Source of the DNA: the human T2T-CHM13v2.0 reference genome, Homo sapiens
Length of the DNA: 64,000 nucleotides
Assembly (NCBI RefSeq): GCF_009914755.1
Contig: NC_060930.1
Strand: one strand, 5' to 3'
The position numbers and the translations under genes are program-made. Below, piece after piece: positions 19,255 through 22,600 of the stretch; the first letter of the stretch is position 1; every line of letters starts with the position of its first letter. A model generated the notes under the pieces. It ran no database searches and was not told the DNA's origin. It was given only the letters and a program-made list of their open reading frames with translations.

Positions 19255-19392
19255 TTACTCATTTCATTGGTCCAGTTATAGATTCTGTTAGATATGAGTT
19301 CTAAATTTCTTTTCAAAGAATCAATATGTCAGTATGTTCAATTCTTTGCCTTCTACTTTTAATCTTAACTTCCTCGTAAAGCAACCTGTTTC

Positions 19393-19619
19393 GATTACCT
19401 GCTCCACCCTGACTCATTCCAATTACGTGCTTCACCCTGACTCCTTCCAACTACCTGCTCCACCCTGACTCATTCCGATTACCTGCTTCACCCTGACTCA
19501 TTCGGATTATTACCTGCTCTACCCAGACTCATTCGGATTACCTGCTCCACCCTGACTCCTTCCGATGACCTGCTCCACCCTGACTCATTCCAATTACCTA
19601 CTCTACCCTGACTCATTCT
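19393..19619 (+). repeat. 28-bp VNTR, 8 units (GATTACCTGCTCCACCCTGACTCATTCC)
   Basis: Units start at 19393, 19421, 19449, 19477, 19505 (31 bp), 19536, 19564 and 19592. Confidence 0.95.
19410..19615. promoter_or_regulatory. Clustered AP-1 motifs; candidate enhancer
   Basis: Perfect TGACTCA at 19410, 19466, 19494, 19581 and 19609; one-mismatch copies in the other three units. Activity is inferred, not shown. Confidence 0.65.
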
Positions 19620-22600
19620 GATTCCGTCCCCTGTCATAACCATTTTTCCCGCCAAACCACTCACCCCGTCACTCTCTTTAAATTAGCCAATCAGAATTAG
19701 TTTAACCTGTGCAGTCTAACCCTAGCCAATAGGGGAAGGACACAGCAGCAGGGGCCATGGGCTTCAGGGATAAGAACCCCTTCCCCTCTCTTGTCCAAGT
19801 GTGCACTCACCATTGCTCCATCTGTAAGGGTGCACCCTTCTATAGAAGTAACTTGCCTTGCTGAGAATTAAAAAGAAAATTTTATATTCGAGTGCTATTT
19901 CTTTTGCAGCACCGAAACTTTATTTATAACAATTCCCTGTCACTTCCTGAGGTCTCCCAGGAGATACACCCCTTAGAACTAGAAAAGAAAAGAAGGAAGG
20001 TTGCTTTTCGTCAGTTTCTGGAAGCAACCCCGCTAGCCCATCACTGGTGGAAGCAGAGGGATCTCGTGATGTGGAGCCGTCAGGGTGTGTGACTCCAGGT
20101 GAAGTCAGGCAGTGTTTGCTTGTTTCAGCTGTGCAGCGTGGACACACTTCAGAAGTAAAAGGTACCCGCAGGTGACAGAGGAAAAAGAGGAAAAGGTTGT
20201 CCCAACAGATAAACTCGTGGGCCGCTTGCTCAGTCCAGGAGGCAGGGCTTTGCCTTTGGGTTAGAATCTTAGAGCCACAGGCAGAAGGAGGCCTAGGCGG
20301 GTCTGAGAGGCTTTAAATTCCCTTCATCATGGGTCACGGGTCTTTTAAATTCCTTTCCATCCGACTTGACTCGCCAAAGCCACTGTTGTTCAGCTACTCT
20401 GAAGGGAGAGATGATCAGTTTTAGGATCATGTCCACCTACAGCCGGTTACTGAACCCTCTTCTGGGAAGGCGATCACCATCTGGGAACTGATAAGGATGA
20501 CTCTTTGGACCTTCAAAGAGGGGACCCAAATTTGAGGCTGTGTCCTCCCAGCAGAGGTAGCCAGTAGGTCCTGCCCAACTCCACATTTTGACAGGCTCAA
20601 AGGCAGTGATATGAAGGGTTAGGACAGGGGCCACTCAGGGACACTCCCTTTCTGACATCTTGGAGCTGAGTAACTACCTATCAGGACAAGTGAAGGAGTC
20701 AAAACCTGTTTGGAACTCAAAGAGTGAAAACTCCTGCTTAGATTGAATTGAAATGAGAAAAAGCAGCCCTGTCATTAATCAGGCAGGGAGGAGAAGCATA
20801 GAGGAAGCCGGCTGCAGAGTTAGCAGAACAAACTGCTTCTCTCAAGGTCATGCAGGGGTTGGAAAAGCCACAGCGACACTCTCTTTGGGGGATCAACAGC
20901 TTTCTTATCGAGAACACCACAGACTTCCCTTGTATTTTCATTTGTGGGGTGGGGGGTGGCCCACACCCAGTTGTTGCCTGGTCAAGTTGACAAACATCAG
21001 GAAGCTGCCGCCCTCCATCTTCTCTCACTTCTCAGAGAGTCAGAAAGGCAGCCAGGCAGGGCTGGAGAGCTAGGTTCACTTTGTATAAAATTTTAACACA
21101 TAGAATGAAAGCAGATGATAGCACATTGATGTGGCCAGGATTCCCCACAGAGAGGTTACCATAGAGGAGGCTCCTGAGAGGCCACCTTGCCTTCCCTGTG
21201 CTGCCGGGCAGGAGGGTCTGCAGGCAGAAGGAGTTTCCCCAGCCCAGCAATGACAGCAAAATGAAAGTGCTGGCCCAGCACCCACAGCATCATCCTGAGG
21301 CCATCAGAATGACAGCTGACCTCCCTCGGGGGAGCTCCTAGGCAAAGCAGGGAAGAAGAAGGAAGAAGGAATAGAAGAAGGAAAGATTGTTTTGTTTTAC
21401 AGTTTGAAAATACAATGTGCAAAAAGTACTTTATGCATAAGGAGGGGGAAATTCAAATTCAGGCCTCACCTAGCAGGTCAGCTAGCAGTCACACACCTGG
21501 AGACAGTTTCCAGTGCTGGCAGAAAAGTGAATCAGTCTGCTAGTGTCTGGGATTAGAATGGCATACACAGGAAAGCCCACAAAATCAGCAGGTCGTATAC
21601 CTTTCAGGGTGGAGATTCAGAAACACCGGCCTCTAGTAGGTCTCCTTTTATGACTCATGTGCCAAAGACTGCTCTGTCCCACTAGGTTGTCTTGTTAGGT
21701 TTTCAGACCTACCTGGTGACACCTTGGTCAATAAGCACATGAACAGATTCAAAATTGAGGCACCCTTACCCAGAGGAGGTGCTAAAGCACAAGCCCCCAA
21801 CCCAGATGGAAGACCTGACTGCCTTTTTGCCCCAAGGCTCGGCTGGGTGGAATATCTGCTTCCTCTCGGGAAAGTAGAGTTGAGGACTCCCATTCTCCGT
21901 GGTCGTTAATTTCAGACAGGTTCTAGTAATCACATGACTTGCTCTGCAGTTTCTCCAGCAACTCGGAGCTCCCAACCCTCTTGCACGCACAGCCCTTGCT
22001 GCCGCTGTTCCTGACCTGTTACCAGGCCCTGATCCCATCTTCCAGATAGGAGCAGACCAACTTCTGCCAGGCCTCCTGGCCACTGCCAAATCCCTTCTCG
22101 AGTAGCAAATCTGAAGTGACTTACACATCCTGAAGTATGTTACAAATGTTTATTATTATTCCAGCGAGAAACAGATATCATTTTCACCACTACACGCAGT
22201 AGTGTTGTAAGAGGCAATATAGAGCTCACTCTCCTTTTTTGAGCGTTACACAAATACAGCGGCAAACACTCATCAAGTGTGGGATGCGGTGGGGGTGGTG
22301 AAAAGGAAGTAAACAACTTCCCAAGAGGAAAATAAAAAATTCTAAACCCTTTATTAGAAAACTATTGGAATCTTGGTCAACTCTATTCCATCCCCTTTAC
22401 TTCAAATGTAGCTGAGTGTGTTGAAGTTACCTGTCCAAGTGATGAACCAATGGGAAGAAAGATCAAGACACCCTCGCCACCACCGGTCCCCCTGACTCTT
22501 CCTCCTCCCCTGGACACAAATTCCAATTTCAATCCTAAATTTGATGTGCTTTAAGGAATTTCTAAAGCACTTTCAGACGGAGTATCTCATTCTGCATTTT

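What the first reader, a model, noticed from the sequence alone, without database searches (positions are those of the whole stretch)
19286..19931. Intact LTR10 solo LTR with an 8-unit AP-1 VNTR: candidate copy-number-tunable, MAPK-responsive enhancer inside AGPAT4
Seen: complete solo LTR (TGTTA...TAACA, TSD ATTC) about 6.5 kb from the first coding exon, with 8 tandem 28-bp units carrying 5 perfect and 3 one-mismatch TGACTCA motifs. In units 1 and 7 the AP-1 motif overlaps CATTCCA, a TEAD/MCAT core. Established (recalled): LTR10A/F elements carry an AP-1-containing VNTR and act as FOS/JUN-bound enhancers in epithelial tumours such as colorectal cancer. Inference: this copy may link MAPK/AP-1 (possibly YAP-TEAD) signalling to AGPAT4 expression and so to LPA/PA metabolism, with strength depending on repeat number.
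Basis: partly seen in the sequence, partly recalled or inferred. Interest (0 to 1): 0.75.

Follow-up and report, generated by a model that had tools for sequence, protein, structure and literature searches.

The report
Solo LTR10F retroviral remnant in AGPAT4
This is a real, complete, ordinary leftover end-piece of an ancient retrovirus (family LTR10F/HERV-IP) sitting backwards in an AGPAT4 intron; its family is already known to act as growth-signal-responsive switches in some tumours, but nothing yet shows that this copy does.

Summary
Window 19286-19931 (+) is a complete 646-bp solo LTR: TGTTA...TAACA ends, a 4-bp ATTC duplication on both sides, and eight 28-bp units with 5 exact and 3 one-mismatch TGACTCA motifs.

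- **Family:** it is LTR10F, not LTR10A. It carries the published LTR10F motif context. It is 92-94% identical to F-marker copies and about 79% identical to A-marker copies. Proviral relatives have a tRNA-Pro primer site, which fits HERVIP10F.
- **Position:** AGPAT4 intron 2, antisense, 6.5 kb from exon 2.
- **Age:** print gives 30-40 My for the family. This copy's private divergence is 2.8%, half the family median and the lowest of 70 copies. That suggests roughly 10-30 My.
- **Function:** AP-1 enhancer activity and unit-number variation are published for the family, not for this copy. RefSeq enhancer records overlap 3 of 9 chr6 LTR10F copies, including a neighbour 41 kb upstream of AGPAT4, but not this one. 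The array has no two identical units, so recent growth is not evident. The TEAD idea has no support.

Verdict: a known kind of element carrying an untested regulatory hypothesis.

The parts
19282..19285 (.). Left target-site duplication, ATTC
   Evidence: Identical to 19932-19935. A 4-bp duplication is the family rule: 18 of 31 copies with both ends reached have one.
19286..19931 (+). Complete solo LTR of the LTR10F type (HERVIP10F, ERV1/gamma-like), 646 bp, antisense to AGPAT4 in intron 2
   Evidence: TGTTA...TAACA ends. End-to-end matches to other genomic copies. F marker present and A marker absent. 92-94% identical to F-marker copies, about 79% to A-marker copies. The + strand is the proviral sense strand, because relatives oriented the same way have the primer-binding site after TAACA and a polypurine tract before TGTTA. 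The flanks of this copy hold neither.
19286..19393 (+). Unique 5' part of U3, before the array
   Evidence: Its first 100 bp align 1-100 to most copies at a median of 94% identity.
19394..19620 (+). Tandem array of eight units (seven of 28 bp, unit 4 of 31 bp). Each unit has an AP-1-type heptamer (5 exact, 3 with one mismatch). Five units have a TACCTG box and three have CATTCC.
   Evidence: TRF. Motif positions. Unit table and identity matrix. TACCTG at 19396, 19452, 19480, 19511 and 19539. The F-type context CCTGACTCATT is exact in 5 units and has one mismatch in 3.
19621..19931 (+). 3' part of the LTR: the rest of U3 with CCAAT boxes (19687, 19726) and a TATA-like ATAAGA (19770), then the inferred R and U5 with the only ATTAAA signal (19867)
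   Evidence: Motif positions and the share of 49 copies that keep them (GCCAA 33 and 42 of 49, TAAGAA 36, ATTAAA 29). The U3/R/U5 borders are inferred, not tested. 19631-19931 aligns 1-301 to other copies at a median of 91.7%.
19932..19935 (.). Right target-site duplication, ATTC

Best explanation
A gamma-like endogenous retrovirus of the HERVIP10F type integrated antisense into what is now AGPAT4 intron 2 and made a 4-bp ATTC duplication. Recombination between its two LTRs then removed the interior and left one complete LTR10F. These steps are shown by the sequence.

Its U3 holds eight diverged 28-bp units. Each unit pairs an AP-1 site with a TACCTG box, which is a ZEB-type box by recall. Five of each are still exact.

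By analogy with its family, the copy is most likely silent heterochromatin in normal tissues. It keeps a latent, sequence-encoded ability to bind FOS/JUN dimers when AP-1 is high and the repressors are low. This step is inferred.

That it currently drives AGPAT4 is possible but unshown. A richer LTR10F copy 41 kb upstream of the gene is the better-documented candidate.

The insertion is old, roughly 10-30 million years, but it is the least diverged of the 70 family copies I compared.
For: - Structure: ends, duplication and array. No primer-binding site or polypurine tract in the flanks.
- Family: the F marker is taken from print. It is present in all 30 of the best genomic matches, this copy included, while the A marker is present in 0 of 30. 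Identity is 92-94% to 29 F copies and about 79% to 20 A-marker loci.
- Parent virus: in 6 relatives (L002, L003, L006, L013, L026, L030) the 3' flank matches the reverse complement of the tRNA-Pro 3' end at 11-15 of 15 positions. The same flanks match tRNA-Ile at 7-10 of 15. Repbase pairs LTR10F with HERVIP10F (Kojima 2018 Table 4; Vargiu 2016 table).
- Age: the star-tree branch is 0.028 (bootstrap 0.016-0.040) against a family median of 0.056. The star tree fits well (r 0.915). Three provirus LTR pairs differ by 0.054, 0.077 and 0.107. Print gives about 30 My and 30-40 My.
- Default silence and AP-1 response of the family: Ivancevic 2024 passages and Frost 2023 passages.
- Family-level enhancer annotation: 3 of 9 chr6 copies overlap RefSeq enhancer records that cover 0.27% of chr6.
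Against: - No chromatin, binding or expression data for this copy could be read here.
- RefSeq lists no functional element over it. This weakens the idea of latent enhancer strength, although those sets are thresholded and repeats map poorly.
- Three of the eight AP-1 cores are mutated. The relative L002 keeps 7 of 8 and L003 keeps 10 of 11.
- The subfamily name rests on one printed 11-base marker plus similarity. Dfam/RepeatMasker could not be run.
- The low divergence has no settled explanation. Late insertion, a slow local clock and constraint all remain open.
- The conversion of divergence to years uses substitution rates that I recalled (1.0-2.2e-9 per site per year).
Confidence: 0.8

Rival explanations
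1. One reading: this copy is an active MAPK/AP-1-driven enhancer of AGPAT4 in carcinoma or trophoblast cells, and its strength is set by unit number.
For: - Eight units is the third-highest count among 55 sampled copies. Five exact motifs are matched or exceeded by only 7 of the 55, this copy included.
- In print, motif number correlates with H3K27ac and FOSL1 signal.
- 71 distinct LTR10 enhancers were predicted in HCT116, from a merged set of 649 LTR10A/F elements.
- AGPAT4 is reported as aberrantly expressed in colorectal cancer (PMC7099097, abstract).
- The LTR is intragenic, 48.5 kb from the transcription start.
Against: - AGPAT4 is absent from the main text of both LTR10 papers, and no paper pairs the two terms.
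- No RefSeq enhancer lies over this copy, while the neighbour L003 and two other chr6 copies have one.
- LTR10F is reported as more weakly JUN-bound than LTR10A.
- The units are impure, with none identical and 24-25 of 28 positions shared at every lag. Nothing here suggests an unusually unstable array.
Confidence: 0.15
2. The unusually low divergence reflects purifying selection, meaning the copy has been taken over as a host regulatory element.
For: It has the shortest star-tree branch of 70 copies (0.028) and the shortest neighbour-joining terminal branch of 49 (0.017 against a median of 0.045). The ratio to the family median is 0.51 (0.31-0.74). The neighbour L003, 90 kb away, is not similarly low (0.046, rank 18 of 70). 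This argues somewhat against a purely regional slow clock.
Against: - The array, which would be the functional core, is the most decayed part. Three of eight AP-1 cores are lost, and the unit variants are private when compared with L002.
- CpG retention is ordinary: 5 of 11 sites, against a family median of 0.36.
- A late insertion explains the same numbers. The youngest of three dated proviruses has 0.027 per branch.
- The comparison rests on only about 400 sites.
Confidence: 0.05
3. It is an LTR10A, or another LTR10 subfamily, rather than LTR10F.
For: The finding left the subfamily open. No Dfam or RepeatMasker tool was available.
Against: There are no CCTGAGTCACC and no TGAGTCA in the LTR. 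Identity to the 20 loci fetched with the A marker is about 79%, against 92-94% to F copies. Print says only the A and F subfamilies carry the AP-1 array.
Confidence: 0.02

Closest known systems
LTR10F solo LTRs of HERVIP10F (Repbase/Dfam; HERVIP group, HERVIPADP supergroup of Vargiu 2016)
   Same: Same ends (TGTTA...TAACA), a 4-bp duplication, the 28-bp AP-1 array with the F-type context, and 92-94% identity in the non-repeated parts.
   Different: It has eight units where print gives three motifs for the family consensus and where my sample mode is four. It also has the lowest private divergence of the 70 copies compared.
Tested LTR10 enhancers in HCT116, such as LTR10.ATG12 and LTR10.XRCC4 (Ivancevic 2024)
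   Same: Same family and the same AP-1 array architecture. Like several LTR10 enhancers (for example the first-intron LTR10A in ENG), it lies within or close to a candidate target gene.
   Different: Those copies have H3K27ac and FOSL1 signal and were perturbed with an effect on genes. For this copy no such data were seen, and AGPAT4 is not in the main text.
LTR10A enhancer in ENG intron 1 in trophoblast stem cells (Frost 2023)
   Same: An intronic, JUN-bound type of LTR10 element, in a family active in both placenta and cancer.
   Different: That one is subfamily A, whose JUN/JUND enrichment is reported as stronger than that of F. AGPAT4 is not mentioned in that paper.
Neighbouring LTR10F-type copy at chr6:162673599-162674386 (L003), 41 kb upstream of the AGPAT4 start
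   Same: Same subfamily. K2P distance 0.055 to the window copy.
   Different: Opposite strand. It is flanked by a primer-binding site, so it is probably the 5' LTR of a provirus. It has 11 units with 10 exact motifs. It lies under a RefSeq 'P300/CBP strongly-dependent group 1 enhancer' record.

Membership tests
LTR10F (subfamily) | AP-1 motif in the printed F context (CCTGACTCATT), not the A context (CCTGAGTCACC) | tested here: met
   The contexts are from Ivancevic 2024 methods. The window LTR has 5 exact and 3 one-mismatch F contexts and no A context.
LTR10F (subfamily) | Closer in sequence to F copies than to A copies outside the array | tested here: met
   Median 94.0% and 91.7% (5' and 3' segments) to 29 F-marker copies. 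Median 79.0% (18 of 20 loci with a hit) and 79.3% (20 of 20) to A-marker loci. Caveat: the 29 F copies were chosen as the best matches to this copy.
LTR10F (subfamily) | Assignment by the Dfam/RepeatMasker profile | not testable with these tools
   No Dfam or RepeatMasker tool was available. RefSeq soft-masking covers 19631-19792 and 19803-19935 without a family name.
ERV1 (gamma-like) LTR | TG...CA ends with a short inverted repeat, and a 4-bp target duplication | tested here: met
   TGTTA/TAACA ends and ATTC on both sides. 18 of 31 sister copies have identical 4-bp flanks. That 4 bp is typical of this class is recalled knowledge.
HERVIP10F (HERV-IP) as parent virus | Proviruses with this LTR type carry a tRNA-Pro-type primer-binding site | tested here: met
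   In 6 relatives the 3' flank matches tRNA-Pro at 11-15 of 15 positions and tRNA-Ile at 7-10 of 15 (the tRNA genes are from the reference). This is shown in relatives only, because a solo LTR has no such site. The LTR10F-HERVIP10F pairing is in print.
HERVIP10F (HERV-IP) as parent virus | Classification by a core gene (pol) | not tested
   No internal region was fetched. The LTR, print and the primer site were judged sufficient.
Solo LTR | A single LTR bounded by one matching duplication, with host sequence on both sides | tested here: met
   ATTC on both sides. The flanks give only noise-level matches to either tRNA probe (8-9 of 15 at odd offsets).
AP-1-dependent LTR10 enhancer (functional class) | Recorded enhancer activity or AP-1 occupancy at this copy | tested here: not met
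   No RefSeq functional element overlaps it, whereas 3 of 9 chr6 copies overlap one. ChIP, ATAC and H3K27ac tracks and the papers' supplementary tables could not be read, so this is weak negative evidence only.
AP-1/TEAD composite element | TEAD core next to the AP-1 site, and TEAD occupancy | tested here: inconclusive
   CATTCC is present in units 1, 3 and 7 and overlaps TGACTCA by 2 bp. Occupancy is not testable here. The TEAD4-enriched families named in the Frost 2023 passages are LTR3A, LTR7C and MER41C. 'TEAD' occurs 0 times in Ivancevic 2024.

The most novel reading that the evidence does not exclude
This is the least-diverged LTR10F copy of 70 compared and carries one of the longest arrays. 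It could be a late, possibly ape-only insertion, or a copy held under constraint, that serves as a lineage-specific AP-1-responsive enhancer of AGPAT4 or a neighbouring gene in trophoblast or epithelium.
Probability: 0.07. Interest if true: 0.55.

Novelty: already known. Interest (0 to 1): 0.27.

Why it matters
If the copy were shown to be AP-1-bound and linked to AGPAT4, it would add one more gene, and a lipid-signalling one reported as aberrantly expressed in colorectal cancer, to the set rewired by LTR10 elements. As it stands, the value of this check is mainly corrective:
- The subfamily is F, and the parent virus is HERVIP10F.
- The copy is antisense and intronic.
- Its array is old and impure.
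- The TEAD idea lacks support.
- A richer sister copy upstream of the gene already carries an enhancer record.

The one unexpected result is the low private divergence of this copy. It can be settled cheaply by looking at the orthologous site in other primates.

Tried and rejected
- **Four-unit block duplication.** TRF reported period 115, 2.0 copies, score 362. I rejected this reading. Unit-to-unit identity is 24.0-24.7 of 28 at every lag, with no peak at lag 4.
- **First dating attempt.** It used the 30 best matches and was biased towards this copy. I replaced it with a sample drawn by motif pattern alone: 57 places on chr1-chr6, of which 49 were usable. I then added a union of 70 copies.
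- **Regional slow clock.** I tested this only through the neighbour L003 (branch 0.046, rank 18 of 70). The result is not conclusive.
- **Inheritance of the eight-unit array.** I compared this copy with L002, which also has eight units. The variants of the window copy are private to it, so the question stays open.
- **Literature.** (AGPAT4 with VNTR, retrovirus, solo LTR or FOSL1) returned nothing on AGPAT4 among the 15 papers listed. The T2T epigenome preprint mentions only HERVIP10FH-int and has 0 hits for LTR10. Neumayr 2022 (PMC7613064) is not held. The link between RefSeq's cofactor-group enhancer names and that HCT116 STARR-seq study therefore rests on the ChromBERT paper's passages and on my recall.
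- **Not done.** I ran no Rfam, ORF or protein searches, because the feature is a non-coding LTR.
- **Supplements.** They were closed. Tables S14, S24 and S25 of Ivancevic 2024 may list this very copy.
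Full report
**1. The observation**

Window 19286-19931 on the + strand is 646 bp. It begins TGTTA and ends TAACA, and ATTC flanks it on both sides. Tandem Repeats Finder reports an array at 19394-19618 with period 28, 7.9 copies and 84% matches. Anchoring on the AP-1-like heptamers gives eight units, seven of 28 bp and one (unit 4) of 31 bp.

- Exact TGACTCA: 19410, 19466, 19494, 19581, 19609.
- One-mismatch forms: TGACTCC at 19438 and 19553, AGACTCA at 19525.
- CATTCC overlaps the heptamer in units 1, 3 and 7.

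Across the whole window the heptamer is not enriched (14 found, 11.9 expected from shuffles). The cluster exists because one unit was copied, not because independent sites accumulated.

The AGPAT4 transcript has 9 exons. Exon 2 (26455-26721) holds the start of the coding region and exon 1 is at 68261-68384. The LTR therefore lies in intron 2, 6,524 bp from exon 2 and about 48.5 kb from the annotated start, and AGPAT4 is on the opposite strand.

**2. Is it a real retroviral LTR, and is it complete?**

A search of the reference genome with the 646 bp found 885 candidates, of which 40 were scored. Many were end-to-end matches at 79-91% identity. Of the 30 saved loci, this copy included, 24 begin TGTTA and 24 end TAACA, and 9 have identical 4-bp flanks.

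In an independent sample, 18 of the 31 copies whose two ends the alignment reached have identical 4-bp flanks. The ends are therefore correct, the copy is full-length, and a 4-bp duplication is the family's integration signature.

Relatives in the same orientation show two kinds of flank:
- a primer-binding site straight after TAACA (L002, L003, L006, L013, L026, L030, and a degraded one in L012);
- a purine-rich tract straight before TGTTA (L005, L008, L009, L018, L021, L023).

This fixes the + strand as the proviral sense strand and places the array in U3. The window copy has neither kind of flank. It is a solo LTR.

**3. Family**

The methods of Ivancevic 2024 print the AP-1 contexts of the two array-bearing subfamilies. 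LTR10F has CCTGACTCATT at all three motifs. LTR10A has CCTGAGTCACC.

- The window LTR has five exact and three one-mismatch F contexts and no A context.
- All 30 best matches carry the F context and none carries the A context.
- Twenty loci fetched with the A context (37 genomic matches, against 5 for the reversed control) are only about 79% identical to the non-repeated parts of this copy. The 29 F copies are 92-94% identical.

The primer site of the proviral relatives matches the reverse complement of the last 15 bases of tRNA-Pro genes from the reference at 11-15 of 15 positions, with L026 at 15 of 15. The same flanks match tRNA-Ile at only 7-10 of 15.

Print agrees. Kojima 2018, Table 4, pairs HERVIP10F/HERVIP10FH with LTR10F and LTR10A, and pairs HERVI with LTR10B/B1. 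Vargiu 2016 lists HERVIP as HERVIP10F/LTR10F.

So the element is LTR10F of HERVIP10F, an ERV1 or gamma-like group. Ivancevic 2024 calls the parent HERV-I, which is a looser use of the name. I could not run Dfam.

**4. Age**

Print gives about 30 My for the group (Ivancevic, passage). Vargiu gives 30-40 My from LTR divergence of 10-19% (passage).

For my own estimate I avoided any consensus. I took every distinct place on chr1-chr6 listed by a pattern of two adjacent F contexts. That pattern has 230 genomic matches and 0 for the reversed control; 100 matches were listed, giving 57 places. I aligned the 5' 100-bp and 3' 301-bp segments separately and added only the counts.

| Measure | This copy | Family |
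|---|---|---|
| Star-tree branch (K2P), 49 usable copies | 0.028, rank 2 of 49 | median 0.056, IQR 0.046-0.063 |
| Neighbour-joining terminal branch | 0.017, shortest of 49 | median 0.045 |
| Bootstrap interval of the star branch | 0.016-0.040 | ratio to median 0.51 (0.31-0.74) |
| Star-tree branch in the union of 70 copies | 0.028, shortest of 70 | median 0.055 |
| CpG sites retained | 5 of 11 | median 0.36 |

The mean pairwise K2P distance among the 49 copies is 0.112. The star tree fits the distances well (r 0.915, with residual spread below sampling error).

Three proviruses with both LTRs in the sample differ by 0.054, 0.077 and 0.107 between their LTRs, which is 0.027-0.053 per branch.

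Using rates that I recalled:
- at 2.2e-9 per site per year, this copy's branch gives about 13 My;
- at 1.3e-9 per site per year, it gives about 22 My;
- scaling the family median to the printed 30-40 My gives about 15-20 My.

With the bootstrap interval, the honest range is roughly 10-30 My. The copy is old and, according to print, fixed like all LTR10 insertions. It sits at the young or slow end of its family. Late insertion, a slow local clock and constraint cannot be told apart here. The neighbour L003, 90 kb away, has a branch of 0.046, which does not point to a regional effect.

**5. The array**

Print gives three AP-1 motifs for the LTR10F consensus. Among 55 sampled copies with both flanks, the unit counts were distributed as follows:

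| Units | 2 | 3 | 4 | 5 | 7 | 8 | 10 | 17 |
|---|---|---|---|---|---|---|---|---|
| Copies | 14 | 12 | 18 | 6 | 2 | 1 | 1 | 1 |

The window copy is the single copy with eight units and ranks third. Seven of the 55, this copy included, have at least its five exact motifs. The sampling pattern required at least two exact motifs.

The array does not look recently grown:
- No two units are identical; the best pair shares 27 of 28 positions.
- Identity is 24.0-24.7 of 28 at every lag, so the period-115 row from TRF does not reflect a block duplication.
- Some variants recur in non-adjacent units, such as TGACTCC in units 2 and 6. This suggests old copying or conversion of units that were already mutated.
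- The relative L002 also has eight units, but they are nearly uniform (7 of 8 exact), and the variants of the window copy are private to it.

By contrast, the chr1 copy L007 has 17 units with runs of identical neighbours. Family-level unit-number polymorphism and somatic change are in print. I found no evidence on this locus.

Each unit also carries TACCTG, intact in 5 of 8 units. From recall, this is a ZEB-type box. Ivancevic 2024 shows ZEB1 and ZEB2 ChIP signal over LTR10A/F and an inverse relation between those repressors and LTR10 activity. So each unit pairs an activator site with a likely repressor site.

**6. Function**

At the family level:
- LTR10A/F are bound by FOSL1 and JUND in HCT116.
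- They lose transcripts and H3K27ac with MEK inhibition and gain them with TNF-alpha.
- They sit in H3K9me3 chromatin in normal adult tissues.
- 71 distinct LTR10 enhancers are predicted to regulate AP-1- or MAPK-dependent genes, and the merged set analysed held 649 LTR10A/F elements.
- Both subfamilies are JUN-bound in trophoblast stem cells, F less strongly than A.

For this copy I could use only RefSeq's functional elements. None overlaps the LTR. 'Silencer' fragments lie at 17549-17791 and 20797-21102.

Of the nine LTR10F-type copies I knew on chr6, three overlap 'cofactor-group' enhancer records:
- chr6:29716786-29717985;
- chr6:85199734-85200933;
- chr6:162673472-162674685.

There are 390 such records on chr6, covering 0.27% of the chromosome. 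Their names match the HCT116 STARR-seq classes of Neumayr 2022, as cited in the ChromBERT paper, which also links the EP300-dependent enhancers in that data set to FOSL1 and JUND. I could not read the original study.

The third record covers L003, an LTR10F-type copy 41 kb upstream of the AGPAT4 start with 11 units and 10 exact motifs. So the family's enhancer potential shows up even in RefSeq. The documented candidate near AGPAT4 is the sister copy, not this one. Absence from a thresholded set in repeat sequence is weak negative evidence.

**7. The TEAD idea**

CATTCC is part of the F-type unit across the family. It is seen in many of the matched strings and occurs 0-9 times per copy. It overlaps the AP-1 heptamer by two bases, so one unit could hardly hold both proteins at once. 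That last point is my inference.

In the passages of Frost 2023 that I read, TEAD4 enrichment is named for LTR3A, LTR7C and MER41C. 'TEAD' occurs 0 times in Ivancevic 2024. In units 1 and 7 the A after CATTCC stands where units 3 and 6 have the G of a CpG, which is consistent with CpG decay.

**8. Verdict**

This is a known kind of element, correctly spotted and now typed more precisely. The regulatory reading is a reasonable hypothesis borrowed from the family. It has a modest prior and one weak piece of evidence against it. AGPAT4 is reported as aberrantly expressed in colorectal cancer (abstract of PMC7099097). No held paper pairs AGPAT4 with LTR10.

Noticed in passing
G000 chr6:162673599-162674386 (L003), minus strand, outside the window: A second LTR10F-type copy lies 41 kb upstream of the AGPAT4 start, between AGPAT4 and PRKN. 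It has 11 units with 10 exact AP-1 motifs and a tRNA-Pro-type primer site in its flank, so it is probably the 5' LTR of a provirus. It lies under a RefSeq 'P300/CBP strongly-dependent group 1 enhancer' record.
   Followed up: partly
G000 chr15:23495462-23499464 (L121), in an ATP10A intron: An LTR10F-like copy whose array holds at least 112 units over about 3.6 kb, mostly at 28-bp spacing, with no exact TGACTCA or TGAGTCA at all. This is far above the 33 AP-1 motifs that print gives as the maximum for annotated reference (hg38) elements. It shows that an array can grow without an intact AP-1 core.
   Followed up: partly
G000 chr1:73025192-73026002 (L007): A copy with 17 units and 14 exact motifs, including runs of identical neighbouring units. 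This looks like recent expansion, in contrast to the window copy.
   Followed up: no
G000 chr5:116441270-116443056 (L110, L011): Two F-type arrays lie only about 1.4 kb apart on the same strand. L110 gave no match to either the 5' or the 3' LTR segment used as probes. The arrangement is unexplained.
   Followed up: no
window 17549-17791 and 20797-21102: RefSeq 'silencer' fragments lie on either side of the LTR, about 1.5 kb and 0.9 kb away. Their origin and cell type were not looked up.
   Followed up: no
window 18772-19092, with an A-run at 19054-19085: A masked repeat ending in a 32-base A-run lies about 200 bp upstream of the LTR. It looks like an Alu-type element and is not nested with the LTR.
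   Followed up: no
window 19396, 19452, 19480, 19511, 19539: Five of the eight units keep a TACCTG box next to the AP-1 site, a ZEB-type box by recall. Print shows ZEB1/ZEB2 ChIP signal over LTR10A/F.
   Followed up: partly
Loci L002, L003, L006, L013, L026, L030 (3' flanks): Proviruses with this LTR type have a tRNA-Pro-type primer site, not a tRNA-Ile one. A key functional paper nevertheless names the parent virus HERV-I. This is a naming mismatch worth flagging.
   Followed up: yes
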